Of a stretch of 64,000 bases of DNA, positions 6,209 to 60,525 are shown in pieces. The position numbers and the translations under genes were made by a program. Each line of letters begins with the position of its first letter. The stretch's first letter is position 1. This stretch comes from an uncultured Acidimicrobiaceae bacterium (GTDB lineage Bacteria > Actinomycetota > Acidimicrobiia > Spongiisociales > ZC4RG35), in assembly GCA_964617995.1 (NCBI GenBank), contig CAZTXD010000001.1:6383-70382 (forward strand), in the 5' to 3' direction. The notes beneath the pieces are model-generated. The model searched no databases. It was not told where the DNA came from and saw only the letters and a program-made list of their open reading frames with translations.

Positions 6209-6216
6209 GGGGGTCC

Positions 6217-6636: not shown

Positions 6637-6648
6637 CGGCAAGTACCC

Positions 6649-7041
6649 TCAGAGCGTGAAGGGGTGCGGTAGCAGCTCCTCGAGGGTGTGGGTGCGGACC
6701 TTCGACCCCGATCCGGCGGTCACGTGGATCTCGTCGACCCCGAATTCGGACATGATCTGACGGCAGCGGCCGCACGGGTAGGCGGCCGACAGCCCGGGAG
6801 CGTCGATGCAGGCCACCGCCACGGCGTCGACCTTGCGGACTCCCTGGGAGACGGCATGGGCGATGGCTGTCGCCTCCGCGCAGTTGGAGGATGGATAGGC
6901 GGCGTTCTCCACGTTGGCGCCGGTGTAGGTGAGACCGTCGGAGGAGAGCACGGCCGCACCCACGCGGAACTTCGAGTAGGGCGCATAGGCATTGGCAGCG
7001 GCCTCCCGGGCGAGGGCGACGAGGTCGTTTCGATCACGCAT
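6649..7041 (-). CDS. cdd: Cytidine deaminase
   Basis: 130 aa from an internal ATG (MRDRNDL...). Zinc-binding motifs CAEATAI and PCGRCRQ are present. The start overlaps the ftsY stop by 8 nt. Confidence 0.8.
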   Translation of the reverse strand: MRDRNDLVALAREAAANAYAPYSKFRVGAAVLSSDGLTYTGANVENAAYPSSNCAEATAIAHAVSQGVRKVDAVAVACIDAPGLSAAYPCGRCRQIMSEFGVDEIHVTAGSGSKVRTHTLEELLPHPFTL

Positions 7042-19417: not shown

Positions 19418-19426
19418 GGGCAGGCC

Positions 19427-20113
19427 TCAGGACCCCGTCCGTCCCCACCGTTCCAGGGCCCGACGGGCCGCGTCCTGCTCCGCCTCCTTCTTCGACCGGC
19501 CGCTGCCCTCCCCCCATTCCTCGTCTCCCACGCGGACAACCGCTCTGAAGACACGGGCATGGTCGGGACCCGAGCCTTGCACCTCGTACTCGGGGCGCCG
19601 CTGATCGCTGGCCAGGAGCTCCTGCAGCCTGGTCTTGTAGTCCCGGCGACCCGGCGAGCTCGCCTTCGCCCGGACCCTCGACTCCCACAGTCGCATGATG
19701 ATGCCCCGGGCGGTCGGGTATCCGGCATCGAGGTAGAGGGCTGCCAGCACAGCCTCCATGGCATCGGCGAGGATCGAGTCCTTGTCCCGGCCGCCGGACG
19801 CCTCCTCACCTCTTCCGAGACGCAGGTACCGGCCCAGATCCAGTGTCCGGGCGACCACCGCCAGTTCGGCACCACTGACCGACGCCGCCCTGATCTTGGC
19901 CAGCTGGCCTTCGGGAAGCTCGGGAAATGCCGCGAAGAGGAACTCGGTGACCGCCATCTGCAAGACGGCATCGCCGAGGAACTCGAAGCGCTCGTTGTGG
20001 CCGACGTCGGAATGCTCAGAGGCGTAAGAGCTGTGGGTCAGCGCCTCGTCGAGGATCCGCCGGTTGGAGAACTCGTGGCCGATGGCCGACTCCAGATCGG
20101 CCACCCCGCTCAT
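19427..20113 (-). CDS. rnc: Ribonuclease III
   Basis: 228 aa. ERFEFLGDAVL catalytic signature plus a C-terminal dsRNA-binding domain. Confidence 0.9.
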   Translation of the reverse strand: MSGVADLESAIGHEFSNRRILDEALTHSSYASEHSDVGHNERFEFLGDAVLQMAVTEFLFAAFPELPEGQLAKIRAASVSGAELAVVARTLDLGRYLRLGRGEEASGGRDKDSILADAMEAVLAALYLDAGYPTARGIIMRLWESRVRAKASSPGRRDYKTRLQELLASDQRRPEYEVQGSGPDHARVFRAVVRVGDEEWGEGSGRSKKEAEQDAARRALERWGRTGS

Positions 20114-41912: not shown

Positions 41913-43628
41913 TCACACCAGGGAGTGCCGGTGGGCGAAGGCGGTGGCGGCAGTACGCGTGGTCACCCCTACCTTGGTCAAGATGCTGCTCACATGGGAG
42001 TCCACGGTCCTCACCGAGACAACCAACTCATCGGCCATCTCCTTGTTGGTGAGACCCGAGGCGAGCAATTCCAGCACCTGCAGCTCTCGCGGGGTGAGCC
42101 CCTGGGGAGCAGCCGGAGAGGCCTCGCGGGCATCGACCTGGTAGGAGGCGACTTCCGGATCCGCCCCCAGGGCGACGAGGACTCGGTTTGCAGAATCGGA
42201 TTCGAGTCGAGCGGTGTCCTCGTCGTCGAGCATCTGGCAGCACTGCGCGATGAGCGATCGGGTCCGTGCCTCCTCGTATCGGAGGCCGAGGTGCCGCCAT
42301 ACCCGGCTCGCCTCGCGCAGCGGGGTCAACGCCTCCAATGGGTCGGCCTGAGCGAGCGAGAGGGCGCCCCGGGCATGTCGTGCCGCCGCCTCCAGGGCGG
42401 GCAAGCCGCACTGACCCGCTGTCTCGCAGAGCTCCTCAGACGCCGCCGATGCCCCGCTCGTATCTCCCGAACGGAGCTGTATCTCGATGCGGGCAGGGAG
42501 CAGCCGGGCCTGTTGCCACCAGCCGTTGGCCTCGGCCAAGGCCCGATCGATCGACGCCCCGGCGGTGCCGATGTCGCCTTCGGCCATGCGGAGGAGAGCG
42601 AGGCCGGGCTGGGGGTCGAGACCGCGTCGGCTCACCTCCTCATAGGCAACCCCGGCGGCAGCCATGTCACCCCGCAGGCGGGAGATCTCAGCCCGGCGAT
42701 AGTGTGCCCTCGCCGCGGCGATCGGGTCTGTCTCGGCGAGGGACTCCTCGCACGCTGCCAGTGCCGACTCCAGTGCCTCGTCCCATCGTCCCTGGAGCTG
42801 GTCGAGCGTTGCCCGGTGAGCGCAGGCCCGAGCCCGGAAGCCCCTCAGTCCGTGCTGGCGCCGACACCAAGCGAGAAGATCCCGAGTCCAGTCATCGAAA
42901 CGTCGCATATCGAAGACCTCCTCGCTCGCCTCGACCGCCGAGCACAGGACGATCCCGGCAATCGGGGCAGAGACCCCGCCGGTGAGGACCATCGTCACCG
43001 ACTCGTCGATGGAGGCCATCCCCTCGGGGATCCTCCCCGATCTCAAACCGACGCGACCGTGAATCGTCGACGCCAGCGCCAGCACCTCCCGGTCGTCGAA
43101 CCGACGGCCGATCTCGACTGCGCGCGCCGCCATGGTGGCGGCTCCGTCGAGATCGGCCCCCATCGCCAGACGCTCGAATGCCCCCGGTATGAGGAGGAAG
43201 CCGCGCTCGGCGCATTCGCCTTCGTTCTCCAACAGCTCGGAAGCCTGGCCAACCCACGCCGAGCAGGCGCTCACCGATGATGGGAGACATCCGGTGGCTT
43301 CGACGATGTCACCAGCGTCGAGCCGGTCCAGGCCGAACATGAGGGCACAGCGCGCCGCCTGCCGAACGTGACGTTGGCCGACATGGAGCTGGTATGCCCG
43401 TAGACGGGCATGACGAGACTCATCGGCGCGGCCCACCAGGAATGCCGAGGTGGCCAGAAGCTCGAGATGCTCGGCTCTCAGCGTGGACTCGCCGTCGAGC
43501 CGGGTCAGCCCCTCGTAGACGTCGAGCCAGCGGCCCCGTGCCGCGGCCTCCACGGCGTCTGCCGGCGATTCGACACCGACCTCTCCGGCGCTCGGTGTCG
43601 GGATGTCCGCACCCGACCGCACAGCCAT
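41913..43628 (-). CDS. LuxR-family transcriptional regulator with large TPR-like N-terminal domain
   Basis: 571 aa with a C-terminal LuxR HTH (LTPRELQVLELLASGLTNKEMADEL...VRTV). No Walker motifs were seen. Confidence 0.7.
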   Translation of the reverse strand: MAVRSGADIPTPSAGEVGVESPADAVEAAARGRWLDVYEGLTRLDGESTLRAEHLELLATSAFLVGRADESRHARLRAYQLHVGQRHVRQAARCALMFGLDRLDAGDIVEATGCLPSSVSACSAWVGQASELLENEGECAERGFLLIPGAFERLAMGADLDGAATMAARAVEIGRRFDDREVLALASTIHGRVGLRSGRIPEGMASIDESVTMVLTGGVSAPIAGIVLCSAVEASEEVFDMRRFDDWTRDLLAWCRRQHGLRGFRARACAHRATLDQLQGRWDEALESALAACEESLAETDPIAAARAHYRRAEISRLRGDMAAAGVAYEEVSRRGLDPQPGLALLRMAEGDIGTAGASIDRALAEANGWWQQARLLPARIEIQLRSGDTSGASAASEELCETAGQCGLPALEAAARHARGALSLAQADPLEALTPLREASRVWRHLGLRYEEARTRSLIAQCCQMLDDEDTARLESDSANRVLVALGADPEVASYQVDAREASPAAPQGLTPRELQVLELLASGLTNKEMADELVVSVRTVDSHVSSILTKVGVTTRTAATAFAHRHSLV

Positions 43629-43677
43629 GCCACAACCCTACCGATCCACGTGGGGTCGGGCACAGGACCGGTTCCGC

Positions 43678-44223
43678 TCACTCGGTCAGGCGATGGACGA
43701 TGAACATCCCTCCGAATCCGGGATTTCCCCGATCCCGTCGTTCGGCGTCCGCGGCGGCGTACTCGTTGACGAGCGCCTTGAACCGTTCGATGAACCCCGC
43801 CAGCATCTCGTCGTCGAGATGGAGATGGAACCTGGTCATCTCGGCCACGGAGTCATGACCGGACTCGTGGAGCTCCCGGCGAAACGCGTTGAGCATGGCC
43901 GGCTCGCCAGCGTCCTCTTCGTCGGCGACGATCTCGTCGAAGCTCAACCTCCACGACAGACCGGTGGAGCGATACGGCTTCTCGTAGGCTCCACTGGGTC
44001 CCTGGCGCACTCCGACCGACTCCAACAGCCCCGCCGCCAGCAGGAGGCGTACGTGATGCAACACGGTGGAGGGATCCAGCTCGAGACGATCGGCCAGTTC
44101 CTTGTTGGTCCTGGCACGGTCGTTGCACAGCCGCAGGATCCGCAACCGGGTCGAGCTGGCAACTGCCTTGACCTGGGTCTCGGTGGGTGGAAGCTGCCAA
44201 TCCTCCCGTCGACGTTCTTGCAT
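43678..44223 (-). CDS. ArsR-family (winged-HTH) transcriptional regulator with C-terminal extension
   Basis: 181 aa from an internal ATG (MQERRRED...) with the HTH ELADRLELDPSTVLHHVRLL. Divergent from the MFS gene. Confidence 0.6.
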   Translation of the reverse strand: MQERRREDWQLPPTETQVKAVASSTRLRILRLCNDRARTNKELADRLELDPSTVLHHVRLLLAAGLLESVGVRQGPSGAYEKPYRSTGLSWRLSFDEIVADEEDAGEPAMLNAFRRELHESGHDSVAEMTRFHLHLDDEMLAGFIERFKALVNEYAAADAERRDRGNPGFGGMFIVHRLTE

Positions 44224-44257
44224 GGACCAGCAGAATAGCCTCGGCTTGGGAACCTTT

Positions 44258-44289
44258 CCAATCAATTGGTAGATTATCCAATTGATTGG
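44258..44289. promoter_or_regulatory. Two 12-bp palindromic operator-like sites (CCAATCAATTGG and CCAATTGATTGG), centres 20 bp apart, flanking TANNNT -10-like hexamers
   Basis: AT-rich island in the 72-bp divergent arsR-like/MFS intergenic region, seen directly. Confidence 0.55.
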
Positions 44290-44295
44290 TAGGTT

Positions 44296-45549
44296 ATGCA
44301 AGTGCCGGTCGAACCTCCTCAACCCGCTCCACCGGACGGACCTTTCCTCCGTCTCGTTGCCTCCTCGGGTCTTTCCAATCTGGCCGACGGGATATTCAAG
44401 ATCGGTCTCCCGCTGGTAGCGGTCGCCTTCACCCGCTCGCCGCCGCTCGTAGCCGGGCTCGAGCTGGTGCGCACGCTGCCGTGGCTGCTGGGGGCCCTGC
44501 CCGTTGGTGCCCTGGTCGATCGTCTCGACCGTCGCCACACGATGCTGGTGTCCAATCTGGTCCGGACCGCGGCGGTCGCCGCCCCCGCGGTGGCCATCGG
44601 CGCCGATCAGGGATCGATCGGGCTGCTGTACCTCGCCGCCCTCGCCACGGGGCTGGCAGAGGTGTTCTATGACACCGCGGCTCAATCCCTCGTGCCGAGC
44701 ATCGTTGCCCGTTCGGATCTCGACCGCGCCAACGGTCGACTCTATGCCGTCGAGCTCGGCGCCCAGGAGTTCCTCGGCCCACCCCTATCCGGCCTCCTGA
44801 TCGCCGTTGCGCTGTCCCTGTCCTTTGCCGCGTCCGGTGCTCTCTGGATCGTCGCCATCGTCGTCCTTCTATCGATACGCGGCCCGTTCCGACCGGTCAG
44901 GACCGGCGAACCCGCGACGCTGCGGGCAGACATCCGGGAAGGCGCTCGGTTCTTGCTGGGCCGGCCCCTCCTCCGGACCATGGCCCTGATGGTCGGCATG
45001 ACCAACCTGGCAACCAGCGCCGTGTTCGCGGTTTTCGTTCTCTTCGCCGTGGGACCGGACTCGGCCATGCAACTCTCCGAGCCACAGTTCGGACTTCTGT
45101 TCGCGACTCTCGCCGCCGGCGCCCTGCTCGGTGGCTTCCTCGCCGAGCATGCCCAACGCCGCTTCGGTCGGGCCCGCACCCTCACCCTGTCGGTGGCGGG
45201 CATCACCGCCTACGTCGTCGCTCCCGCCTTGACCGCCAACATCGTCGCCATCGCCGTCACGATGTTCCTGAGCGGGGTCACCACGATGATGTGGAACGTC
45301 ACCACCGTGTCCTTCCGCCAGCGGGTGACCCCGGATCACCTCCTCGGTCGGTTGAACAGCGTCTACCGCCTGGTGGCGTGGGGAACCCGCCCACTCGGCG
45401 CCGTCCTCGGCGGAGCACTCGGTCAGTGGCTCGGCGTCCGTGGTGTCTTCGCCGTCATGAGCGTCCTGGCTGCGGCGACACTCGTTCCCAACCGCAGCAT
45501 CACCGAGGAGGCGCTCGTCACCGCCGAGAGCGATCCCGAATTGGAATAG
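44296..45549 (+). CDS. MFS transporter
   Basis: 417 aa with 12 predicted TM helices and an MFS-like loop motif. Confidence 0.8.
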   Translation: MQVPVEPPQPAPPDGPFLRLVASSGLSNLADGIFKIGLPLVAVAFTRSPPLVAGLELVRTLPWLLGALPVGALVDRLDRRHTMLVSNLVRTAAVAAPAVAIGADQGSIGLLYLAALATGLAEVFYDTAAQSLVPSIVARSDLDRANGRLYAVELGAQEFLGPPLSGLLIAVALSLSFAASGALWIVAIVVLLSIRGPFRPVRTGEPATLRADIREGARFLLGRPLLRTMALMVGMTNLATSAVFAVFVLFAVGPDSAMQLSEPQFGLLFATLAAGALLGGFLAEHAQRRFGRARTLTLSVAGITAYVVAPALTANIVAIAVTMFLSGVTTMMWNVTTVSFRQRVTPDHLLGRLNSVYRLVAWGTRPLGAVLGGALGQWLGVRGVFAVMSVLAAATLVPNRSITEEALVTAESDPELE

Positions 45550-46104
45550 CCCTTCTCAGAAGGAACTCCCTCGGGCGTCGTATCCGTGGCCGGCCCCTGA
45601 TTGCTACCGAGACAGAAGAAACCCCGAGGGAGCCGGACCGAAGCCTCAACCCTCTCGGGGTTCTCCACCCACTCGTCAGCCGGGTCGAAACCCTGCTCCC
45701 GGTGGGAGCGGCTGCCGCCTCTCGGTAGCAGCCTGACGCGGTCTTTCGACCGCTCGGACCCCCGTCTCCGAGGACCCCAGGACCGTCCGGCGAATCGTGG
45801 CCAATGGCCGCCGATCCGACGCTTCCGGGGCCTGAGCCCCGGATCCGCTCCGGCCGTGAAGCCGGTCCGGGCCGGACCCTCCGCACCCACCGTCTCAGGT
45901 GGGCCCGGACCCAGTCGGGAGTTGCCTCCCGATCCGGGCGCTGAGGGGTCTCCCCCAACAGCGACGATGGCAAGGTAGATCCTCACCGTCATCGAATGCA
46001 AGCCAGCAGCCTGATTGTTTTTCGCGAATAGCAGCCTGTTTTTCGCGTTCGTTTCTGCAATAACCCTCCGTTTCGAGAGCGCGAAAAGAAACCGTGTGTT
46101 CAGC

Positions 46105-46134
46105 TTGACGACACCTCCCGGAGCGCCCTAACTT
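46105..46134 (+). promoter_or_regulatory. Sigma-A-like promoter candidate (TTGACG -N18- TAACTT)
   Basis: Good -35 and TANNNT -10 hexamers in the AT-richer part of the 820-bp non-coding region. Preceded by TTTTCGCG motif repeats. Confidence 0.35.
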
Positions 46135-46140
46135 TCCAGT

Positions 46141-46299
46141 CACCGGATCGGGGGCGACCCCGGACCGGCACCACAGTCGCCGAGAGGCGGCAGTGGGAGG
46201 TCTCTCGGAGACCGGGCTTTCGGGTCCGGAGTGCGGGAGATCGGGAGGCCCCGAGAGGGTAGGTGCTTACGCACAGACTTTCTCGGGGCCTTTTCTTTC
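46141..46299 (+). ncRNA. Candidate small RNA, or 5' attenuator/riboswitch leader of the downstream nuclease gene
   Basis: Runs from the predicted transcription start to a 13-bp GC stem (GGCCCCGAGAGGG...CTTTCTCGGGGCC) plus a CTTTTCTTTC T-tract at about 46247-46299. Contains internal hairpins, including one with a GCGA tetraloop. No protein ORF is present. Confidence 0.3.
46247..46299 (+). terminator. Rho-independent terminator-like hairpin plus T-tract
   Basis: 13-bp stem (2 G-U pairs), an 18-nt loop, then TTTTCTTTC. Lies 70 nt upstream of the ATG at 46369. Confidence 0.5.
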
Positions 46300-46368
46300 A
46301 TACCGGTCACCGTCACCGCGGCCCGGAGAACTACATCTGTGTCACTCTCACCGGGTAGGGTGCCGCCC

Positions 46369-47139
46369 ATGACGTTGGCGACAGAACCCCTGGAGACACT
46401 GTCACCGAGCAGGGCCGGAGACTTCAAGACCTGCCCTCGACTGTTCAAGTTCCGTGCCATCGAACGTCTCCCAGAGCCCACCACCGTGCATCAGGCACGT
46501 GGCACGACGGCTCACGTCGCCCTCCAGCGTCTCTTCGACCTGCCGGCAGGCGACCGCTCCCCCACCCGGCTCTTCGATCTGTTCCGGGAGGCCTGGGCCG
46601 AGCTTCGAGTCGAAGCCGAGTACCGGGACCTGTTCCCGTCGGTCGACGAGGAGCGTCGATGGGGCGTCGAGTCCCTCCAGCGGCTCGCCAACTACTTCGA
46701 GGTCGAGGATCCCGCGGTCATCGAGCCCATGGAACGGGAGAAGGAGATGTTCGAGGATCTGGACGGCATCGTCATCCGGGGGATCCTCGACCGTCTCGAC
46801 CGTGACTCCGAGGGACGGTTGGTCATAACCGACTACAAGACCGGGCGGGCCCCACCCGAGAGATACGCCCTGGGCTCGTTCTTCGCCCTCAAGATCTATG
46901 CCCTCCTCATCCGGCAGATCGAAGGCGAGACACCGGTCGAGGTTCGCCTCCTGTACCTCGACGGCCCGACCCTCTATCGCTGTCCGGTGGACGACAACGG
47001 CCTCGATGCCATGGACCGCCAGCTCCGGGCGTTGTGGCAGCGCATCGAGTGTGCGATCGTCGATGACCGCTTTCCGCCGCGGCCGGGTCGTCTGTGTGAT
47101 TGGTGTGCGTTCCGGGACCGGTGCCCTGCCTTCGAGTAG
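46369..47139 (+). CDS. PD-(D/E)XK nuclease, Cas4/AddB-type with 4-Cys cluster
   Basis: 256 aa from an internal ATG. N-terminal Cys (TCPRLFK) plus C-terminal CDWCAFRDRCP, the Cas4/AddB nuclease Fe-S arrangement. Predicted RecB-like nuclease core. Confidence 0.6.
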   Translation: MTLATEPLETLSPSRAGDFKTCPRLFKFRAIERLPEPTTVHQARGTTAHVALQRLFDLPAGDRSPTRLFDLFREAWAELRVEAEYRDLFPSVDEERRWGVESLQRLANYFEVEDPAVIEPMEREKEMFEDLDGIVIRGILDRLDRDSEGRLVITDYKTGRAPPERYALGSFFALKIYALLIRQIEGETPVEVRLLYLDGPTLYRCPVDDNGLDAMDRQLRALWQRIECAIVDDRFPPRPGRLCDWCAFRDRCPAFE

Positions 47140-47158: not shown

Positions 47159-48436
47159 TCAGGGGAAAATGCCCCGTACCAGTTTGGCGTCTGCCACCCG
47201 TCGGATCCCCTTGATCAGTGCAGCCGTGCGCATGTCGACGTTCTCGGCGTTGGCGATCGATAGAACATCGTCGAAGGCCCTGGTCATGATCTCGCGTAAG
47301 CGGCCGACGATCTCGTTCTCCGACCAGAAGTATTTCTGGACGTCCTGAACCCATTCGAAGTAGCTGACGGTGACGCCGCCGGCGTTGGCGAGGATGTCGG
47401 GAACGATGAACACCTCCCGATCGCGGAGTAAGTCGTCGGCGTCCAGGTTGGTGGGGTTGTTGGCGCCTTCGATCACGATCCTGGCCTGGATCTCCTTGGC
47501 GTTCTTGTCGTTGATCACACCCTGGAGAGCAGCGGGCACCAACACATCGCAGGGAACCGTGAACAGCTCCGACCCGTCGATGTGCTGGGCGTCGGGATAA
47601 CCCTCGAGCACACGGTGTTCATCCACCCACTTGCCGGCCCCGGCGATGTCGAGACCGTTCTCGTCGTAGACGGCGCCGGAGACATCGGAGACGGCCACGA
47701 CCTTGCATCCCATCTCCACCGCCGACACGGCGGCGTAGCGACCGACGTTACCGAACCCGTGGATGGCCACCCGGGCACCCTCCGGGCTCATACCGATGTG
47801 GTGGGCTGCCTGGGGCAGGAGGAACATCAGTCCCCTCCCGGTGGCCTCCCGGCGGGCGACGCTCCCTCCCAGGGCCGGGGGCTTGCCGGTGACGATGGCG
47901 GGCACGGCATGACCGACGTGCTGGGAGTACGTGTCCATGAGCCACGCCATCACCTGCTCGTTCGTTCCCATATCGGGAGCCGGGATGTCGGTGTTGGGTC
48001 CGATCACGTTGATGATCTCCATCGTGAAACGACGGGTCACCCGCTGCAGCTCTGCCCTGGACAGAGCCATGGGATCGACGCGCACCCCTCCCTTGGCACC
48101 CCCGAAAGGGACCCCGACTATGGCGCACTTCCACGTCATGAGCATCGCCAGAGCCGCCACCTCGCCCAGGTTGACGTCCCCGGCGAAACGGATACCGCCC
48201 TTGGTGGGGCCCATGGTGGTCAGATGCTGGACGCGATACCCGAAGAGCGTGTCCACATCCTCATAGGTGTCGTGACGAAACGGGAAGGTGACGACCGTTG
48301 CCTTTTGAGGAAAACGCAGCCGTTCCGCGACGTTGTCGTCGAGACCTATGAGAGTCGCCACCCGGTCGAATTGGCCCACCGCCTCCCGATACATGGGAGA
48401 CTCCCACTCCAGCATGTTGCCGTCGAAGGACGTCAT
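47159..48436 (-). CDS. gdhA: NADP-specific glutamate dehydrogenase
   Basis: 425 aa. Glu/Leu/Phe/Val dehydrogenase family with the GGAKGG motif and a Rossmann domain. Confidence 0.85.
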   Translation of the reverse strand: MTSFDGNMLEWESPMYREAVGQFDRVATLIGLDDNVAERLRFPQKATVVTFPFRHDTYEDVDTLFGYRVQHLTTMGPTKGGIRFAGDVNLGEVAALAMLMTWKCAIVGVPFGGAKGGVRVDPMALSRAELQRVTRRFTMEIINVIGPNTDIPAPDMGTNEQVMAWLMDTYSQHVGHAVPAIVTGKPPALGGSVARREATGRGLMFLLPQAAHHIGMSPEGARVAIHGFGNVGRYAAVSAVEMGCKVVAVSDVSGAVYDENGLDIAGAGKWVDEHRVLEGYPDAQHIDGSELFTVPCDVLVPAALQGVINDKNAKEIQARIVIEGANNPTNLDADDLLRDREVFIVPDILANAGGVTVSYFEWVQDVQKYFWSENEIVGRLREIMTRAFDDVLSIANAENVDMRTAALIKGIRRVADAKLVRGIFP

Positions 48437-48609: not shown

Positions 48610-51582
48610 GTGGTGGTCACCGACCGTATCCGAACGCTGACGGGTGCTTCCGAGTGGGACGAGGCGGTAGCCGACACGTCCGGCCCCCAGCTCGTGCTGG
48701 CCGGGCCCGGAACCGGCAAGACCGAGTTCCTCGCTCGCAGGGTGGCGCACCTCATCTCCGAAGGAACCCCGGCTCGGGCGATCCTCGTCCTCACATTCTC
48801 TCGCCGCGCCGCAGCGGAGCTGGAGGATCGGATCGATGCGCTGCTTCCTCGACCGGTGAGCGGCGCCTCCGCCTCCACCTTCCACTCCTTCGCACATCGT
48901 CTACTCGAGAGGTACCGCCACCGGGCCGGACAGGAGCCCCCGTCCCTTCTCACCGGGCCCGAACAGGTGAGGCTCGTCTCTGAGTTACTGGCCGACGAGC
49001 GTCCTCGCGACTGGCCCGTTCATTTCCGCCCGCTGCTGACGTCGGCCACCTTCGCCGACGAGGTGGCCGACTTCCTGATGCGGATCCATGAGCGACTCCT
49101 GGAACCCGACGCCCTCGCCCGGCTCGCCTCCGAGCGATCGGACTGGAGAAGCCTTCCCCGATTCCAGGCGCGCTACCGCGAAGAGCTGACCCGGAGGGGG
49201 AAGGTCGATTACGGCACCCTCCTGGCCGAAGCGGTGCAACTCGCCGAAACCGATGAGGTGGACGGCCAGTTCAGCCATATCGTCGTCGACGAGTACCAGG
49301 ACACGTCCCCGGCTCAGGCCCGGCTCGTCGAGCTGATAGCGGGCGACATGGCGAACCTGACCGTGGCCGCCGACCCCCACCAGTCCATCTACTCCTTTCG
49401 GGGAGCCGACGTGACCAACGTGGAGAGGTTCCCCGACAGGATGGCAGCCATGGGCAAACCCACCACGACCGTCGTGCTGGCGAGGTCCTACCGGGTCCCT
49501 TCCGAGATCCTCGCCTCGGCGACACGCCTCGTCGCTCCCAACCGTCTCCACCGGCTGCCCTCCGTGGAGGTAGCCCCCGCCGACCATCGTGGAACCGTCG
49601 AAGCCCTGACGTTCGACCAGCGATCGGCCGAAGCCGAGTGGATCGCCGCCGAGGTCGAGCGTCTCGCCGTATCCGAGAGGGTCCCGCTCCGATCGATGGC
49701 CGTGCTGGTGCGCTCGACCCGGCACCTGCTTCCCGAGCTGTCGCGTGCGCTCGACCGTCGCAAGCTGCCCCACGACCGCCCCGACGCCCGCCTCGTCGAC
49801 CATCCCGCTATCCGGATCATCTCCGACACTGTCCGCTCAGCCCTCTCCCCTCCCGACTCGCCGGAAAGAGCCCAGGCGACGCGGCGTCTGCTGCTGGGCC
49901 CTCTCATCGGCCTTTCCCTCTCCCGGGAGCGTCACATCGCCCGGCTCGCTGGGGGCGCTGCCGCCTCGTGGCCGGATCTGCTTCGCGTCGAGGTCCCCGA
50001 GGCGGCTCCCCTCGCCGAACTGATCTCTGATCCGTCGTGGGCGACGGATCTGGCTGCGGTCGATGGCTTCTGGCATCTCTGGGATCGCCTTCCCGGCATC
50101 GAGGCGCTGGTCTCCGATCCCCGACGCGCCGACTATCGCTCCGCATGGAGCGCCTTCGCCCGGATGCTGGAAGGGCAAGCCGAACGCGACCCCACCATCG
50201 GTCTCTCCGAAACGCTCGACGCCACCAGCACCGGCGACTTCGAAGCTACCCCGCTGTTGAGCTTCACCCGACCCGAAGAGGACCGGCTGGTCGTCACGAC
50301 CCTGCATCAAGCGAAGGGCCTCGAATTCGAGGTGGTGTTCATCGCCGACGCCATCGAAGGGGTGTTCCCCGACACCCGTAGGGCACGCGCCCTGCTCCAG
50401 ACCCACCATCTTGTTTCCCCCGGTCATCACGACGCCGCCTCCCTCGCTGCCTCACGGCTGGAGGAGGAGCGGCGCCTCGCCTACACCGCCTCCACCCGGG
50501 CGCGGCGGCGCGTGGTGTGGACGGCCACAACCGCCGGTATCGACGAGGGTGAGCGCCGACCCTCACGGTTCATGCTCGCAGCCGTCGGTGTCGACACGTT
50601 CGACGACTTGGGCGGGCCCACACCGGCGGAGCCGTCCGGATTCGAACCGCTCACCCTCTCCGAAGCAGAGTCCCGACTCCGAAGACTGACCATGGACCCG
50701 ACCGCTCCCCCGGTCGACCGTCTCGCCGCCCTCTATGTCCTGACAGCGGAGTCGAGATGGAATCCCCTCTCCTTCGCGGGGGTCCCAGACCCCGGACCCG
50801 ACCATGGGGTCCTCCGGGGCCCGGTGCGGCTCTCCCCCAGCCAGGCGGTGCTCTATGACGAGTGCCCGCGACGTTACGCGCTGGAGCGACGCCTCCATGC
50901 CGTCGACGCCGAGTCGCCCTACCTGGGGTTCGGCTCCATCGTTCACGAGGTGCTGGAGCTCACAGAGAGGGACGCCGTCGCTTCGGGCTCGCCCAGGGGC
51001 GATCTCACAGTGGCACTCGCCCACCTGGATGACGTCTGGGCCCGATATCCTCCTTTCGGGCCGCCGGCTCTCGACGACGCCTGGCGACAGAGAGCGGTGG
51101 AGTTCCTCGAGGGGCTCTACCGCGACTGGCCCGGTGGCGACGAACCCCCGCTCGCCTTGGAGGTGGAGCTGGACACCACGATCGAGGGCGTCCAGTGGGT
51201 CGGTCGCGCCGACCGTGTCGACGCCACCCCTACAGGCGTGAAGATCGTCGACTACAAGACGTCGAGGAATCCGCCCACCCTCAAGGAGGCGGCCCGGTCC
51301 CTCCAGCTCGGCTACTACCTGATTGCGGCCGCCGACCATCCCGAGCTCCGCGGCCACGGTGCCCCGGAGGGCGCCGAGCTGTGGTTCCCTCTCGCCCGCG
51401 GTAAACGAAAGGTCTACCCCTTCGACCTCGCCAACCTCGATGGGGTGCGGGACACGCTCGTCGGCGTCGGCAGGGCAATCCTGGCCGAGGAATGGTCTCC
51501 AACAGTGGGCCGCCACTGTGAGCGCTGCCCGTTCCGACGTGTCTGCCCGGCCTGGCCCGACGGCCGGGAGGCCTACCGATGA
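48610..51582 (+). CDS. adnA: Helicase-nuclease subunit, UvrD-like motor plus C-terminal RecB-type nuclease (AdnA-like)
   Basis: 990 aa. Walker A AGPGTGKTE and UvrD helicase motifs, with a C-terminal nuclease containing the Cys cluster CERCPFRRVC. The first of two paralogous coupled genes. Confidence 0.7.
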   Translation: MVVTDRIRTLTGASEWDEAVADTSGPQLVLAGPGTGKTEFLARRVAHLISEGTPARAILVLTFSRRAAAELEDRIDALLPRPVSGASASTFHSFAHRLLERYRHRAGQEPPSLLTGPEQVRLVSELLADERPRDWPVHFRPLLTSATFADEVADFLMRIHERLLEPDALARLASERSDWRSLPRFQARYREELTRRGKVDYGTLLAEAVQLAETDEVDGQFSHIVVDEYQDTSPAQARLVELIAGDMANLTVAADPHQSIYSFRGADVTNVERFPDRMAAMGKPTTTVVLARSYRVPSEILASATRLVAPNRLHRLPSVEVAPADHRGTVEALTFDQRSAEAEWIAAEVERLAVSERVPLRSMAVLVRSTRHLLPELSRALDRRKLPHDRPDARLVDHPAIRIISDTVRSALSPPDSPERAQATRRLLLGPLIGLSLSRERHIARLAGGAAASWPDLLRVEVPEAAPLAELISDPSWATDLAAVDGFWHLWDRLPGIEALVSDPRRADYRSAWSAFARMLEGQAERDPTIGLSETLDATSTGDFEATPLLSFTRPEEDRLVVTTLHQAKGLEFEVVFIADAIEGVFPDTRRARALLQTHHLVSPGHHDAASLAASRLEEERRLAYTASTRARRRVVWTATTAGIDEGERRPSRFMLAAVGVDTFDDLGGPTPAEPSGFEPLTLSEAESRLRRLTMDPTAPPVDRLAALYVLTAESRWNPLSFAGVPDPGPDHGVLRGPVRLSPSQAVLYDECPRRYALERRLHAVDAESPYLGFGSIVHEVLELTERDAVASGSPRGDLTVALAHLDDVWARYPPFGPPALDDAWRQRAVEFLEGLYRDWPGGDEPPLALEVELDTTIEGVQWVGRADRVDATPTGVKIVDYKTSRNPPTLKEAARSLQLGYYLIAAADHPELRGHGAPEGAELWFPLARGKRKVYPFDLANLDGVRDTLVGVGRAILAEEWSPTVGRHCERCPFRRVCPAWPDGREAYR

Positions 51583-55282: not shown

Positions 55283-57592
55283 ATGCCACTTCCCGGCCTG
55301 GCCGACATGGCCCGAGTCTCAGACATCCGGCTGCCCGCTCAGCCGCCCTGTCCGGAGGTGCCGCCCGGCCATCGGCTGGTCTTCGTTCTCGACGCCTCCA
55401 CCGGCCTGGAGGACAGGCTGCTCAGATCGTGGGCGGATCGTTGCCCGCAGGTCCATGACGTCCTGAACCTGGCCCCGTCCCGGATCCGACGACGCGGCCG
55501 CCGCACCGATCCCGGTGTCGGTGAGACGGTCACAGCGGCTACGCCGACGTGGGTGGTGCCGCTCCGGGTCGTCTGGATGCCGTCGAAGCGGTTCGGACGG
55601 AGAACCGTTTCCTGGCTGGATGTCCTCAAGCTCGGCGATCCCCGCGACCCCCGTTGGTTCCGTGACTACCTGATCCTCGCCCGGCATCCCGACCGCGTAC
55701 GGATCGTCGTGGGCGAAGGCGCCTCGGGGACGGACCTGGAGAAGGCGCACGGAGAGTCCGTGGAGCAGATCGGGTTGGCCGAGTTCGTCAACCGGCGGGC
55801 CCGCCGCGCCCTCGACCGGGCGGAGCGAACGGAAAGGGGCAACCGCTACAAGATCCCCCGTTTCGTGGCCGAGGACATACTGAACCGGCCATCGTTTCGC
55901 CAGCAGGCCGTCACCCTGGGACGGCAGCGCGGCCTGCCCGAGATGGTGGCCCTCTCCCGGGCACGCCATTACCTGGGGGAGATCGCCGCTTCCCACAGTC
56001 CCTTCCTGATCGATCTCATCGCCAATCTCATCCACTGGATCATCCGTCAGGGCTACGGGGCGATCCACTACGACCGCTCCTCCATCGAAGAAGTGGCGAG
56101 GCTGGGCAACGACCATCCCCTGGTGTTCCTACCGTCCCACAAGTCGAACCTCGATCGCCTCTCGCTCCAATTCGTGCTGTGGGAGAACGACCTCCCTCCC
56201 AATCACACGGCCGGCGGGATCAACATGAACTTCTTCCCCGTCGGCCCGCTCGTGCGCCGCACCGGAGTCTTCTACATCCGACGGACCTTCAAGGGGAACG
56301 ATCTGTACAAGTTCGTCCTCCGTACGTACCTCGACTATCTGGTGGAGAAGCGCTTCCCGCTCGAGTGGTACATGGAGGGCGGCAGGTCCCGCTCCGGAAA
56401 GCTGCGGCCACCCCGCTACGGGATGCTCTCGTGGGTCGTGGACAGCTACGCCCGGGGAAACGCCGACGACCTCTACCTGCTGCCCATCTCCATCGCCTAC
56501 GACCAGATCCAGGAGGTGGCCGCATACGTCCGGGAGGCGACGGGCGGCACCAAGGAGGAGGAGACGTTCTCATGGGCACTGCGGTTCGCCCGCAGCCTGC
56601 GACGCAGATACGGAGACATCCACATCCGCTTTGCGGAGCCGATCTCCGTCGCGGCCGAGATGGAAGGCGCCGACATCGCCGACGACGACCCGATCGAGAT
56701 CCAGAAACTGGCCTTCGAGGTGATGTACCGGATCGGCTCTGTAACGCCCGTGACTCCCACTGCCATCGTCTCCACCGTGCTGTTGGCGGCGAAGGGTCGC
56801 GCCCTCGATATCGACACAATCGCCGACCGGTGCGGGGAACTGGCCTCCTACATCCGACGACGGGGGCTGCCCACCACCGTTCCCGACCTCCCCGCCGACC
56901 CGGCTGACGCAGCCCACACGGTCGGGCTCATGTCCGAGCACGGGCTGGTGTCTACCCGCACCTCCGGGGAGAGGACCGTCTACTGGATGGACTCCTCCCA
57001 GAAGCTCCGGTCGGCCTACTACGCCAACACGGTGGTTCATTTCTTCGTCCCCCGTGGGCTGGCGGAGATCGCCATGGCCACCGCCTCCGACCTGGAGGGG
57101 TTCTGGGATGACCTGCTCGCCCTCCGGGACCTGCTGAAGTTCGAGTTCTTCTTCGCCGACAAGGAGGAGTTCCGCCGGTCCGTCGGCGACGAGCTCAGTA
57201 GCGAGGTGACCGACTGGGGATCGCGGGTGGCGGCAGGAGGAGGAAGGGAGCTCAGCCTTTCGCCCTCGACCGTGTCGTGGGCGGTGCTGCCCCTGCTGGA
57301 GGCGTATCTGGTCGTCGCCGACGAGCTGGCGGCCACGGCGGGGGAGGCCGACGAGAAGGCCCTCATGGCAGCGTGTCTGGATCGCGGCGCCGTATACCGC
57401 CTGGAGGGGCGCATCGGATCCGATGAGAGCGTCTCCCAGGCGATGTTCGGAGGGGCGTTCCTCCTGGCCCGCAACCGCCGCCTGGTCGAGGACACCCCCG
57501 ACGTGGCCCGGCGTCGCGCCGAGTTCGCCGCCGAGATCTCCCGGTTCGTATCGACCGCCACTTCCTTTTCGCGCATCGATAGCGCGCTATAG
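55283..57592 (+). CDS. plsB: Glycerol-3-phosphate acyltransferase PlsB-like
   Basis: 769 aa. Acyltransferase HX4D motif (PSHKSNLD) and overall PlsB architecture. Confidence 0.75.
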
Positions 57593-57614
57593 CGCGCTAT
57601 TGATGCGCGAAAAG
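57565..57614. repeat. 50-bp near-perfect palindrome (24-bp arms) containing a tandem 10-bp self-palindromic unit ATAGCGCGCT x2
   Basis: CTTTTCGCGCATCGATAGCGCGCTAT|AGCGCGCTATTGATGCGCGAAAAG. It overlaps the plsB stop codon and lies between convergent genes. Confidence 0.8.
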
Positions 57615-57650
57615 GGGATCCTCCTGGGCGGGCTTCGTCGACTCAACGGC

Positions 57651-59350: not shown

Positions 59351-60525
59351 CCGAACCGCCTCGGCAAGAGGATCGCCGCCACCGCGCCGACAACGACAGC
59401 GAACAGGGCGAGAGCTCCGATCGCGGGCAGTGCCGGGCCCAGCCCATCTCCCGCCTGGAGAGCGCCCAGGCCCCGCAGGAACCACGAATGGGGGGTGGCC
59501 AGGGATATGGCCTCCAGGAGACGGTTCGCCCCGCCGACCGGGAAGAACGTGCCTCCCACCATCCCCAGCGCTACCGCGATGACGGACGTGAGGTTCCCGG
59601 CCCCCTCCGGGGTCCTGGCGAGGGCGGCCACCACTCCGACGATCGAGGTCGCGGCCACAGAAAGCCCAACGATCAACACCCCCACCCCCAGAGGATCACC
59701 CCACGAGGCACCCATCAGTGCGGTGGAGGCGACCGCCAGCACTGCCAGCGCGGCAACACCGAGGATCACACTGGTCATCCCCTTGGCCACCACTACCGCC
59801 CACCGCTGGATCGGGGCGGCTTCGAGGCGAAGAAGGGTCCCATCTCTCTCCTCTTCGAGCAGGCCGGCCACGCCGTACTGGACCAGGAAGAAGACGAAGA
59901 ACGCGGCCATGCCCGCGGCGAAGAAGGTGGGAGGGTCGAGAACACGGTCCGCAGACTCGACCCTGCCGATGGTGGCAACGGGGCGAGCCTGAGAGGCCGC
60001 TGCGGCGACTCGCTCCAGCGTTTCCTGATCGGGCTGGCCCGGCCCTCGAGCCGCCACCGCCGTGACGGCTCGCTGCGCATCCGAGATGGCGGACGCGAAG
60101 CCCTGGGCGATGCCCCTGGCGATCGCTCCCGACGTGGGAGCGTCGACGGCCGCCACCACCGCCACGTCGGTGCTGCGGCCGCCCAGGACCGCCTCGCTGA
60201 AGCCGGCCGCCAATACGATCCCCGCCGCCACGTCACCCCCTTCGACTGCGCCTTCCAGGTCCGGCTCGTCGTTCAGCCTGACCAGGTCGATGACACCCGA
60301 GCGCTCCAGGTCAGACAGTGCCTCGTCGAATCGGGAAGCCACCTCGCCTCCATCGAGGTCGACGAAACCGAGAGTGACGAGGGATCCGTTCCCGAAGGCG
60401 CCCCCGAACACGAGATTGAAGACGAAGGCGAGGACGAGAGGCACCACCAACCCGACCATGATCGCCGACCGGTCGCGTAGTCGCAGGGTCAGGTCCTTGA
60501 GGGAGATCCTCCAGGCAGCACCCAT
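59347..60525 (-). CDS. ABC-2-type transporter permease
   Basis: 392 aa with 6 TM helices and an extracytoplasmic loop between TM1 and TM2. Its start overlaps the ATPase stop. Confidence 0.7.
   Translation of the reverse strand: MGAAWRISLKDLTLRLRDRSAIMVGLVVPLVLAFVFNLVFGGAFGNGSLVTLGFVDLDGGEVASRFDEALSDLERSGVIDLVRLNDEPDLEGAVEGGDVAAGIVLAAGFSEAVLGGRSTDVAVVAAVDAPTSGAIARGIAQGFASAISDAQRAVTAVAARGPGQPDQETLERVAAAASQARPVATIGRVESADRVLDPPTFFAAGMAAFFVFFLVQYGVAGLLEEERDGTLLRLEAAPIQRWAVVVAKGMTSVILGVAALAVLAVASTALMGASWGDPLGVGVLIVGLSVAATSIVGVVAALARTPEGAGNLTSVIAVALGMVGGTFFPVGGANRLLEAISLATPHSWFLRGLGALQAGDGLGPALPAIGALALFAVVVGAVAAILLPRRFG

What the first reader, a model, noticed from the sequence alone, without database searches (positions are those of the whole stretch)
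45550..46368. 820-bp non-coding gap holding a candidate promoter-to-terminator sRNA or attenuator plus structured GC-rich RNA-like hairpins
This is the longest intergenic region in an otherwise tightly packed window, and it has no credible ORF. The 5' part (45550-45700) shows nested inverted repeats (ACTCCCTCGGG...CCCGAGGGAG and CCCCGAGGG...CCCTCTCGGGG). The 3' part becomes AT-richer. It holds a good TTGACG-N18-TAACTT promoter (46105-46134) followed by about 160 nt of hairpin-rich sequence, including a GCGA-tetraloop stem and a GGTCTC-TCG-GAGACC stem. A 13-bp GC stem with a CTTTTCTTTC tail (46247-46299) sits 70 nt before the ATG of the Cas4-type nuclease gene. This is the architecture of either an independent sRNA or a riboswitch/attenuator controlling the nuclease gene.
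Basis: partly seen in the sequence, partly recalled or inferred. Interest (0 to 1): 0.6.

Follow-up and report, generated by a model that had tools for sequence, protein, structure and literature searches.

The report
New Acidimicrobiia small-RNA gene pair
The 820-bp gap is not a riboswitch for the neighbouring nuclease gene: it holds two back-to-back genes for a highly structured small RNA that no catalogue lists and that recurs, often in several copies, in most related Acidimicrobiia loci examined.

Summary
The gap 45550-46368 is non-coding and holds two divergently transcribed genes of one RNA family. A 159-nt four-hairpin RNA lies on the + strand (about 46141-46299). A 355-nt multi-hairpin paralogue lies on the - strand (45965-45611).

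Both genes have a sigma-70-type promoter, with CGCGAAAA box(es) exactly 17 nt upstream of the -35. Both end in the same hairpin, which is almost invariant (CCCCGAGAGGG...CUCYCUCGGGG).

The family occurs next to the same nuclease gene in nearly all of 80 Acidimicrobiia genomes, in 1-5 copies. It also occurs in 81 metagenome loci. Covariation is strong: 93% of cells paired, and 42 of 50 pairs show compensatory changes. Rfam 15 has no match.

In most genomes the RNA faces away from the nuclease gene. That gene is leaderless and has its own RecA-NDp-type DNA-damage promoter. A riboswitch or attenuator is therefore excluded.

Function is unknown. The anatomy favours a trans-acting, protein-binding RNA whose dose is adjustable: arrays of tetraloop-capped hairpins, no single-stranded seed, a dedicated upstream box and tandem amplification. 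This is a new RNA family of a known general kind.

The parts
45611..45965 (-). Long RNA gene, about 355 nt, running from a TSS near 45965-45968 to a terminator tail near 45611. It is a chain of about 12 hairpins. The last 150 nt or so (45761-45611) form a complete short-form-like core.
   Evidence: The composite promoter-to-terminator unit was found by regex. The minus-strand fold is -227 kcal/mol with z = -6.5, and the minus strand folds better than the plus strand. nhmmer aligns positions 46050-45610 to about 30 loci. Model R1 hits 45611-45761 (-) at 69.1 bits. Four close homologues keep the hairpins, with 17 doubly changed pairs.
45611..45666 (-). Terminator hairpin and U-rich tail of the long RNA. 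CCCCGAGAGGG lies at 45660..45650 and CUCCCUCGGGG at 45633..45623, followed by UUUCUUCUGUC.
   Evidence: Sequence. A minus-strand terminator-like site was found at 45634-45620. There is an exact 11-mer match. The inner stem is invariant in 61 of 61 distinct family members.
45972..46001 (-). Promoter of the long RNA: -35 TTGCAT (46001..45996), an 18-nt spacer and -10 TACCTT (45977..45972).
   Evidence: The promoter sits at a conserved position and has a conserved sequence in the alignment of 30 long units. It matches the composite promoter regex.
46019..46047 (-). Two direct CGCGAAAA boxes of the long-RNA promoter. The proximal box (46026..46019) lies 17 nt upstream of the -35. The distal box (46047..46040) starts 21 nt further upstream.
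   Evidence: D4: TGTTTTTCGCG twice, 21 nt apart. Family-wide, the box-to--35 spacing is 17 nt in 178 of 181 promoters. A second box 20-21 nt upstream is present in 158 of 189 promoters.
46080..46134 (+). Control region of the short RNA: CGCGAAAA box (46080-46087), 17 nt, -35 TTGACG (46105-46110), 18 nt, -10 TAACTT (46129-46134).
   Evidence: Sequence, box search and the alignment of 39 units with 75 nt of upstream sequence. TTGACG is the commonest -35 in the family (68 of 181).
46139..46299 (+). Short RNA gene, about 159 nt, with four hairpins. P1 is 46143-46168 (GCGA tetraloop). P2 is 46171-46196 (GAGA loop). P3 is 46199-46242 (a long helix with a conserved GA/GGAG internal loop). P4, the terminator, is 46244-46293, with a tail to 46299.
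   Evidence: Fold z = -7.7. R1 scores 142.7 bits on the + strand against 31.6 bits on the - strand. Covariation is shown.
46340..46371 (+). The nuclease gene's own promoter and start codon. It is not part of the RNA genes but it bounds them. The layout is a RecA-NDp-type motif TGTCACTC (46340-47), N8, TAGGGT (46356-61), 7 nt, then ATG at 46369. The mRNA is therefore leaderless.
   Evidence: 95 of 109 homologous nuclease genes carry TGTCR-N3-N7..9-TANNNT, against 1 of 109 shuffled controls. The start codon lies 6-8 nt after the -10 in 80 of those 95.

Best explanation
The gap contains two divergently transcribed, stand-alone genes of one structured small-RNA family that is not in Rfam. The family was found at nearly all the related Acidimicrobiia loci examined.

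A shared control region of about 115 bp (45996-46110) drives both genes:
- a 355-nt multi-hairpin RNA leftwards on the - strand;
- a 159-nt four-hairpin RNA rightwards on the + strand.

Each promoter is sigma-70-type. Each is preceded, at a fixed 17 nt, by one or two CGCGAAAA boxes 20-21 bp apart. I infer that these boxes are the site of a dedicated transcription factor. Each RNA ends in the same almost invariant hairpin, which also acts as the intrinsic terminator.

Shown: the genes, their strands, the promoters, the terminators, the conserved fold, the multi-copy nature, and independence from the nuclease gene.

Inferred mechanism (about 0.45 on its own): the RNAs act in trans as protein-binding RNAs, either a sponge or a scaffold. 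A protein would recognise the invariant 3' helix (with its fixed G.U pair and A bulge or mismatch) and/or the tetraloop-capped hairpins. Dose would be set by the box-binding factor, by the number of hairpin modules per transcript (short versus long forms), and by gene copy number (tandem arrays of up to 5).
For: Non-coding: there is no codon-position GC bias, and the ORFs in the gap have no Pfam hits.

Homology of the two halves in opposite orientation: (I1 and I4; I4 is a 14-nt perfect match).

Family distribution:
- nhmmer finds it in 71 of 81 sources.
- Model R1 finds it in nearly all of the 80 nuclease-linked genome loci, usually two per locus and up to five.
- It is present in 81 metagenome loci that were found from the terminator pattern alone.

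Structure:
- In 20 sequences, 92.4% of cells are paired against 82.0% in shuffles, and 33 of 50 pairs change on both sides. Slid controls give 36-58%.
- In 61 distinct sequences, 93.2% are paired against 76.9%, and 42 of 50 pairs change on both sides.

Promoter:
- The composite motif occurs 198 times in 1.27 Mb. 181 of these lie directly upstream of a detected RNA, with a rigid 17-nt spacing.
- A second box is present in 158 of 189 promoters.

Size classes: about 150-175 nt and about 275-450 nt.

Hairpin arrays: long forms average 3.7 GNRA-capped and 2.6 UNCG-capped hairpins, against 0.3 and 0.1 in shuffles.

No seed: the consensus has no conserved unpaired run longer than a tetraloop or an internal loop.

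Invariant terminator helix.

Not a leader: orientation is mostly divergent from the nuclease gene, and the nuclease gene is leaderless.

Not known: Rfam gives 0 hits at gathering thresholds on the window and on 20 loci, and nothing consistent in E-value mode.
Against: - There are no expression data. Transcription start and end points are inferred from conserved promoter and terminator sequence only.
- No protein partner or box-binding factor has been identified.
- The repeated element is a generic stable tetraloop hairpin rather than a recognisable protein-binding motif such as the GGA loops of CsrB/RsmZ.
- The invariance of the terminator helix could reflect tertiary RNA contacts, or a DNA-level function, rather than protein binding.
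- Multi-copy sRNAs can also be base-pairing regulators, as with Qrr.
- All homologues come from metagenome-assembled genomes (MAGs) and metagenomes, so copy numbers in tandem arrays could be affected by assembly.
Confidence: 0.75

Rival explanations
1. The RNAs are trans-acting base-pairing (antisense) regulatory sRNAs. They would control mRNAs by imperfect pairing, as most bacterial sRNAs with their own promoter and terminator do.
For: The gene architecture fits: own promoter, intrinsic terminator, intergenic position, 160 nt. Multi-copy base-pairing sRNAs do exist (Qrr and LhrC, from my own knowledge). The 3' arm CUCCCUC is anti-Shine-Dalgarno-like (sequence).
Against: No conserved single-stranded stretch is longer than a tetraloop or an internal loop. 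Apical loops are GNRA, GAGA or UUCG, which are structural caps rather than C-rich seed loops. The conserved sequences are locked in a very stable helix that never varies. The hairpin number varies from 4 to about 12 while the ends are kept.
Confidence: 0.2
2. The family is an RNA-polymerase-binding RNA: a functional analogue of 6S RNA or of the actinobacterial Ms1 RNA in a class where neither has been described. This is a special case of protein binding.
For: It is probably an abundant, stable and highly structured RNA with a strong promoter. The long form (275-450 nt) is in the Ms1 size range, and Ms1 has extra 5' and 3' hairpins (PMC9130861). No Ms1 is reported for Acidimicrobiia in that paper or its supplement.
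Against: There is no long rod with a central open-promoter-like bubble in any fold. The Rfam 6S model does not match even at E <= 10. The Ms1 synteny (HAD-IB hydrolase and oxidoreductase) is absent here, where the flanks are an MFS transporter and a nuclease. Up to five tandem copies is unusual for 6S or Ms1.
Confidence: 0.1
3. The + strand element is a cis-acting leader (riboswitch or attenuator) whose terminator controls read-through into the nuclease gene.
For: In this window, and in L084, the short RNA is on the same strand as the nuclease gene, and its terminator ends 70 nt before the ATG.
Against: In most of the 80 genome loci, and in 16 of 17 nuclease-linked metagenome loci, the RNA is on the opposite strand. 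The window arrangement is an inversion of the one in L001. The nuclease gene has its own conserved promoter ending 6-8 nt before the start codon, so there is no 5' UTR. The same RNA occurs without any nuclease gene within 4-8 kb. No riboswitch family matches.
Confidence: 0.03
4. The RNA is a functional partner (cofactor, guide, decoy or regulator) of the adjacent Cas4/AdnAB-like nuclease, or of the DNA-damage response to which that nuclease belongs.
For: The synteny is kept across the class. Nearly all of the 80 nuclease loci have the RNA within 3 kb. In an unbiased sample, 16 of 22 RNA clusters (17 counting the inverted L084) sit next to the nuclease gene, usually divergent and sharing a control region of about 150 bp. 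The nuclease promoter is of the RecA-NDp (PafBC) type.
Against: The RNA promoter is a different type from the nuclease promoter. Unrelated genes are often inserted between the two: MFS, F420H2-dependent reductase and ceramidase-like. About 5 of 22 clusters are elsewhere. PD-(D/E)XK/Cas4-type nucleases are not known to use RNA cofactors (my own knowledge). There is no variable guide-like segment.
Confidence: 0.07
5. The elements are repetitive or mobile DNA (REP/MITE-like palindromes or recombination sites) rather than RNA genes.
For: The terminator is a GC-rich palindrome present in several copies per locus. The whole module is inverted between the window and L001. One copy lies next to an IS110 transposase and an integrase fragment (L195).
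Against: Only the two copies exist in 64 kb. Each copy carries a conserved promoter at a fixed distance. Helices evolve by compensatory changes, including G.U pairs that are strand-specific. The position is syntenic across a class. There are no copies in viral contigs.
Confidence: 0.02

Closest known systems
Csr/Rsm-type protein-sequestering RNAs (CsrB/CsrC, RsmX/Y/Z) under the GacA/UvrY upstream activating sequence
   Same: Both are stand-alone sRNA genes with an intrinsic terminator, built from a variable number of hairpin modules. Both have short and long paralogues in one genome, several copies that are sometimes in tandem, and a conserved upstream box found essentially only at the sRNA promoters. 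This is what the family most resembles in how it would work.
   Different: The repeated GGA-in-loop motif is absent. The loops here are GNRA, GAGA or UUCG. Rfam Csr/Rsm models give only a 16-bit chance hit to RsmW. CsrA is not known in this lineage (my own knowledge, not tested). The most conserved part here is the 3' helix, not the loops.
Ms1 RNA / 6S RNA (RNA-polymerase-binding RNAs)
   Same: Both are highly structured, probably abundant RNAs of an actinobacterial lineage. The long form is of Ms1-like size, with terminal hairpins.
   Different: There is no central bubble or rod. There is no match to the 6S model. The synteny differs. The family is multi-copy.
Bacterial Y RNAs (YrlA) next to rsr
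   Same: Both are structured ncRNA genes, often several in a row, kept next to a stress or DNA-damage-related protein gene.
   Different: There is no Ro/Rsr gene here, no tRNA-like domain, and no Rfam match.
Riboswitches / transcription attenuators
   Same: In this one window a structured element ending in a terminator precedes a gene on the same strand.
   Different: The element has its own promoter, its orientation is usually opposite to the gene, and the downstream gene is leaderless.
Nuclease-associated guide RNAs (omega-RNA/HEARO of IscB/IsrB/TnpB)
   Same: Both are large structured RNAs encoded beside a nuclease gene.
   Different: The nuclease here is a PD-(D/E)XK/Cas4-like domain related to the AdnAB nuclease domains, not RuvC/HNH. 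The RNA is divergently transcribed with its own terminator. There is no transposon context and no Rfam HEARO hit.

Membership tests
Stand-alone bacterial sRNA gene | Own promoter conserved at a fixed distance upstream of the transcript | tested here: met
   Box-N17-TTGNNN-N17/18-TANNWT precedes 181 detected RNAs.
Stand-alone bacterial sRNA gene | Intrinsic terminator at the 3' end | tested here: met
   Both copies have a GC-rich hairpin plus a U-rich tail. It is conserved in all members.
Stand-alone bacterial sRNA gene | Non-coding sequence with a secondary structure kept by compensatory changes | tested here: met
Stand-alone bacterial sRNA gene | A discrete transcript is made | not testable with these tools
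   No transcriptome data are available.
Any Rfam 15 family (4227 models) | Score at or above the family's gathering threshold | tested here: not met
   0 hits in the whole window and in 20 related loci. E-value mode gives only scattered chance hits of 24 bits or less.
Riboswitch / attenuator of the nuclease gene | Lies in the 5' UTR of the regulated gene, on the same strand, in homologous loci | tested here: not met
   Mostly on the opposite strand. Some copies have no nuclease gene nearby.
Riboswitch / attenuator of the nuclease gene | The regulated gene has a 5' UTR transcribed through the element | tested here: not met
   A conserved promoter ends 6-8 nt before the start codon, so the mRNA is leaderless.
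6S RNA | Long irregular hairpin with a large central bubble; match to RF00013 | tested here: not met
   The folds are chains of separate hairpins. There is no 6S hit at E <= 10 or E <= 1.
Ms1 RNA | Synteny with a HAD-IB hydrolase gene and an oxidoreductase gene (PMC9130861) | tested here: not met
   The flanks are an MFS transporter and a PD-(D/E)XK nuclease.
Ms1 RNA | Binds the RNA polymerase core; sequence similarity to known Ms1 | not tested
   No Ms1 sequence could be obtained, and binding is an experiment.
Csr/Rsm sponge RNAs | Many GGA motifs presented in hairpin loops or single-stranded linkers | tested here: not met
   Loops are GNRA, GAGA or UUCG. The only GGA motifs lie in the P3 internal loop.
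Csr/Rsm sponge RNAs | A CsrA/RsmA protein in the same genome | not tested
   Only 64 kb of the genome is available, and it was not scanned for CsrA.
REP/MITE-type repeat | Many dispersed copies without promoters | tested here: not met
   Two copies in 64 kb, each with a promoter.
RecA-NDp (PafBC-type) promoter - for the neighbouring nuclease gene only | TGTCR(gtg)-N8-TAnnnT in place of a -35/-10 pair (consensus recalled from Gamulin 2004 and Mueller 2018; the motif's existence is described in PMC6789036 and PMC8223512) | tested here: met
   Window 46340-46361. 95 of 109 homologues carry it against 1 of 109 shuffled controls. Binding by PafBC is not testable here.

The most novel reading that the evidence does not exclude
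Acidimicrobiia possess a dedicated RNA-based regulatory module that has not been described. A transcription factor recognising CGCGAAAA direct repeats would switch on, almost exclusively, a family of modular hairpin-array RNAs. Dose would be tuned by module number and by tandem gene amplification. The RNAs would titrate or scaffold a still unknown protein through an invariant G.U-containing 3' helix. In effect this would be a Csr/Rsm- or 6S/Ms1-like global regulator invented independently in a CsrA-less, 6S-less lineage, and possibly tied to the DNA-damage response through its conserved linkage to a PafBC-type nuclease gene.
Probability: 0.3. Interest if true: 0.8.

Novelty: new variant of a known kind. 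Interest (0 to 1): 0.6.

Why it matters
Acidimicrobiia occur in soils, sediments, oceans and wastewater, yet I found no published work on their RNA biology. This family has several properties that make it a good entry point:
- It is present at almost every examined locus.
- It is strongly constrained, with an invariant helix that includes a fixed G.U pair.
- It is modular and can be amplified.
- It has its own promoter box.

RNAs with this combination of properties have in the past turned out to be global regulators (6S, CsrB, Ms1) or parts of ribonucleoproteins.

The covariance model built here can annotate the family in MAGs. The over-called 189-192-aa ORF across the long RNA shows that current pipelines mis-annotate it.

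The box gives a handle for finding the regulator, and the 3' helix gives a bait for finding the partner.

The side finding also matters. A class-wide, leaderless Cas4-like nuclease with a RecA-NDp-type promoter extends the PafBC-type DNA-damage promoter to Acidimicrobiia.

Tried and rejected
- **Ms1 RNA.** This was my first guess. I rejected it on synteny and fold.
- **Rfam.** I ran gathering thresholds on the window and on 20 loci, and E-value mode on the gap and on 10 loci. Nothing usable came out.
- **Generic sigma-70 promoter scan.** It found 0 sites, because its -10 rule is too E. coli-like.
- **Small protein gene.** Four ORFs in the gap (192, 125, 82 and 114 aa) have no Pfam hit and no codon bias.
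- **Other CGCGAAAA sites in the window as a regulon clue.** The sites at 57566 and 57606 are the two arms of a large palindrome between convergent genes. The site at 63320 is inside a coding region. Neither is informative.
- **A fixed-spacing box pattern** with N18 found nothing, because the true spacing is 17.
- **Targets complementary to the invariant 11-mer.** Only the two RNAs themselves match.
- **Long RNA as a head-to-tail fusion of two short units.** Only the P1-like hairpin is similar (22 of 27 nt, a score within the range of shuffles), plus a weak 21-bit model hit. The idea remains tentative.
- **Phage origin.** Eight viral contigs match the terminator pattern, but none holds the RNA.
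- **Genes next to RNA copies that lack the nuclease** (luciferase-like monooxygenase, TetR, IS110 transposase, integrase fragment, a primary-type sigma factor). No common theme emerged.
- **Literature searches** for Acidimicrobiia sRNAs or 6S found nothing relevant.
- **Composition-based gene map** to test 'longest intergenic region'. It was too crude to decide.
Full report
**1. The observation**

The window is high-GC DNA (about 66%) from an Acidimicrobiia bacterium. The nearest relatives of the flanking nuclease protein are all from Acidimicrobiia MAGs.

The gap 45550-46368 lies between an MFS transporter gene (44296-45549, +) and a PD-(D/E)XK nuclease gene.

Both flanking genes show the usual third-position GC excess. 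The gap shows none in any frame. The four mechanical ORFs inside it have no Pfam match.

The 3' part folds far better than shuffled sequence: 46135-46310 (+) gives -107.6 kcal/mol, z = -7.7. The + strand of the 5' part does not (z = -0.18).

**2. What the two halves are**

I compared the gap with 80 loci that encode relatives of the nuclease, fetched from one genome per species. The 5' part (about 45607-45720) and the 3' part (about 46139-46299) match the same places in opposite orientation. They are therefore reverse-complement homologues of each other. The repeat finder confirms this: I1, and I4, a 14-nt perfect match CTGCCGCCTCTCGG/CCGAGAGGCGGCAG.

The 5' copy must be read on the minus strand. 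There it folds at -256 kcal/mol (z = -7.3), against -219 on the plus strand. It ends in a hairpin followed by UUUCUUCUG, which the terminator scan had flagged on the minus strand.

nhmmer with the minus strand of 45590-46140 aligns a unit running from about 46050 to about 45610 to some 30 loci, always with the same boundaries.

**3. Anatomy**

Alignments that include upstream DNA show a conserved promoter in front of every unit. It reads (T/A)CGCGAAAA, exactly 17 nt, TTGACG-like -35, 17-18 nt, TAC(G/T/A/C)TT-like -10, with the first hairpin starting about 10 nt later.

181 occurrences lie directly upstream of an RNA detected independently by nhmmer. The box-to--35 distance is 17 nt in 178 of those 181. 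Most of the other 17 are at contig ends or precede divergent copies.

158 of 189 distinct promoters carry a second box 20-21 nt upstream of the first.

In the window this gives two units.
- Minus strand: distal box 46047..46040, proximal box 46026..46019, -35 TTGCAT 46001..45996, -10 TACCTT 45977..45972. The RNA runs from about 45965 to 45611 (355 nt).
- Plus strand: box 46080-46087, -35 TTGACG 46105-46110, -10 TAACTT 46129-46134. The RNA runs from about 46141 to 46299 (159 nt).

Measured from promoter to terminator, 158 units fall into two size classes: a sharp class of 150-175 nt and a broad class of 275-450 nt.

**4. Structure**

Twenty short RNAs align well, and RNAalifold predicts four hairpins.

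On this alignment 92.4% of cells form pairs, against 82.0% after shuffling (0 of 500 shuffles reach the observed value). 33 of 50 pairs show changes on both sides. Sliding the partners by 1-3 columns drops pairing to 36-58%.

I built a covariance model from this alignment (R1). It re-aligns 68 RNAs, 61 of them distinct, from genomes and metagenomes. In that alignment 93.2% of cells are paired against 76.9%, 42 of 50 pairs have double changes, and the slid controls give 39-57%. This alignment is fitted to the model, so it leans towards the structure, but the first alignment was not.

In the window the helices are:
- P1, 46143-46168, with a GCGA loop;
- P2, 46171-46196, with a GAGA loop;
- P3, 46199-46242, with a conserved GA/GGAG internal loop;
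- P4, 46244-46293, followed by a tail to 46299.

Those bases belong to P3.

The inner part of P4, CCCGAG-A-GGG opposite CUC-Y-CUCGGG and including a G.U pair, is identical in all 61 sequences, while the other helices vary freely.

The long RNA keeps its hairpins in its three closest relatives, with 17 doubly changed pairs. It differs from two of them by the presence or absence of whole hairpins. Its last 150 nt or so score 69 bits against the short-RNA model, so it consists of a 5' extension plus a short-like core.

Long forms carry on average 3.7 GNRA-capped and 2.6 UNCG-capped hairpins, against 0.3 and 0.1 in shuffled sequence.

The family consensus has no conserved unpaired run longer than a tetraloop or an internal loop.

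**5. Distribution and context**

R1 finds the family in nearly all of the 80 nuclease-linked loci. Those without a hit mostly have little upstream sequence. There are usually two copies per locus, one short and one long. Near-identical short units form tandem arrays of up to five copies in L030 and L038, and of four in L023.

A scan of metagenome contigs with the terminator pattern alone returned 120 loci, and 81 of them hold the RNA. Eight viral contigs matched the pattern, but none holds the RNA.

Twenty-two metagenome RNA clusters have at least 3.5 kb available on the promoter side. Sixteen of these have the nuclease gene there, divergently oriented, 0.2-4.5 kb away. One more, L084, has the window's arrangement. 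Five have no nuclease gene nearby.

Unrelated genes are often inserted between the RNA genes and the nuclease gene. Examples are an MFS transporter, a ceramidase-like membrane protein and an F420H2-dependent reductase.

In most loci the RNA nearest the nuclease gene points away from it. The window, L084 and a few others have it pointing towards the gene. The whole 690-bp module is inverted between the window and L001, whose nuclease is 78% identical.

The same locus, with at most one substitution, is present in three further public sequencing runs.

**6. Why it is not a leader of the nuclease gene**

Orientation is one argument. The second is that the nuclease gene has its own conserved promoter: TGTCACTC (46340-46347), 8 nt, TAGGGT (46356-46361), 7 nt, ATG.

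95 of 109 homologues have TGTCR-N3-N7..9-TANNNT immediately upstream, against 1 of 109 shuffled controls. In 80 of those 95 the start codon lies 6-8 nt after the -10.

This has the form of the actinobacterial RecA-NDp motif through which PafBC activates DNA-damage genes. The motif and its role are described in PMC6789036 and PMC8223512. The consensus sequence itself I give from memory.

An mRNA that starts at or next to its start codon has no 5' UTR in which a riboswitch or attenuator could act.

The protein is a stand-alone Cas4/AddB-like nuclease domain. Its nearest solved relatives are the nuclease domains of mycobacterial AdnAB. An AdnAB-like helicase-nuclease gene lies 1.5 kb downstream.

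**7. Mechanism**

Shown:
- There are two independent genes.
- Their strands, control elements, fold, conservation and copy-number variation are established as above.

Inferred:
- They are transcribed and act in trans.

On how they act, I favour protein binding (sponge or scaffold; about 0.45, including about 0.1 for RNA polymerase as the partner). The reasons are as follows.
- The RNA is almost entirely helical.
- Its loops are structural tetraloops, and there is no seed-like single strand.
- The strongest constraint is on both strands of one helix with a fixed wobble pair, which is typical of a recognition site.
- The number of hairpin modules and the number of genes vary, which suggests a stoichiometric mode of action.
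- The promoter box seems to serve this family only, as GacA boxes serve rsmX/Y/Z.

Base-pairing regulation remains possible (about 0.2). A direct link with the nuclease or the DNA-damage response is suggested only by synteny (about 0.07).

**8. Comparison with known systems, and novelty**

No Rfam 15 family matches. I searched at gathering thresholds on the window and on 20 loci, and in E-value mode on the gap and on 10 loci.

Ms1 was my first idea, but it fails on synteny and fold. 6S fails on fold and model. Csr/Rsm RNAs are the closest analogy in design, but their defining GGA loops are absent.

Full-text searches found no description of sRNAs in Acidimicrobiia.

I therefore file this as a new RNA family of a known general kind (a stand-alone structured bacterial sRNA) with unusual features. 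Those features are the class-wide invariant 3' helix, the modular short and long forms, the tandem amplification, and the dedicated double box at a rigid distance from the -35.

**9. Limits**

- There are no expression data.
- All relatives are MAG or metagenome sequences.
- The genome-collection scan was conditioned on the nuclease gene. The metagenome scan, which was not, is small (22 informative loci).
- The phyletic range outside Acidimicrobiia was not tested.
- E-values of the model are rough because of the shortened calibration.

Noticed in passing
window 46340-46371; L001-L200 upstream of the nuclease homologues: The Cas4/AdnAB-like nuclease gene is leaderless and is driven by a RecA-NDp (PafBC-type) DNA-damage promoter: TGTCACTC-N8-TAGGGT-N7-ATG. 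The motif is present in 95 of 109 homologues, against 1 of 109 shuffled controls. This suggests the PafBC-type response extends to Acidimicrobiia.
   Followed up: yes
window 45600-46310 versus L001 2170-2820 (and L084 4303-4990): The whole long-RNA/control-region/short-RNA module is inverted relative to the nuclease gene between the window (and L084) and L001, whose nuclease is 78% identical. The module is bounded by the two inverted, homologous terminator hairpins.
   Followed up: partly
L030 1083-2854, L038 995-2761, L023 1365-2851: There are tandem arrays of 4-5 copies of the RNA gene, in which the repeated short units are near-identical (period about 310-430 bp), each with its own promoter and terminator. 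This points to recent amplification or gene conversion. An assembly artefact is not excluded.
   Followed up: partly
window 57560-57615: A near-perfect palindrome of about 52 nt, CCTTTTCGCGCATCGATAGCGCGCTATAGCGCGCTATTGATGCGCGAAAAGG, lies between two convergent genes. Its outer arms are the same CGCGAAAA/TTTTCGCG octamer as the sRNA promoter box. It is probably a bidirectional terminator. A link to the box-binding factor is possible but untested.
   Followed up: no
window 45423-46001 (-); L209 555-1124: A public gene call places a 189-aa protein with no family hit across the long RNA. The equivalent mechanical ORF in the window is 192 aa. It has no codon bias and is almost certainly an over-call.
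   Followed up: partly
window 45566-45575 versus 45623-45632; 45602-45612 versus 45720-45730: Two extra perfect complementarities exist just outside the long RNA's 3' end. One is CTCCCTCGGG, a third half-terminator that may be a relic of another copy. The other is an 11-nt match between the post-terminator tail and the P2-like hairpin. Their significance is unknown.
   Followed up: no
window 48610-51582 (+) and 47159-48436 (-): An AdnA/AdnB-like UvrD helicase fused to a PD-(D/E)XK nuclease lies 1.5 kb beyond the small nuclease gene. A Glu/Leu/Phe/Val dehydrogenase gene on the other strand separates the two. The neighbourhood is rich in DNA-repair genes.
   Followed up: partly
L195 3906-7464: One RNA copy that is not linked to the nuclease gene sits beside an IS110-family transposase, an integrase fragment and a primary-type sigma-70 gene.
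   Followed up: no
window 6209-7033, 19418-20109, 43638-44292, 59696-60524: A crude composition-based gene map leaves these stretches without a confident gene. They are similar in size to the gap studied, and Rfam finds nothing in them. The ORF 43603-44238 has no Pfam hit.
   Followed up: no
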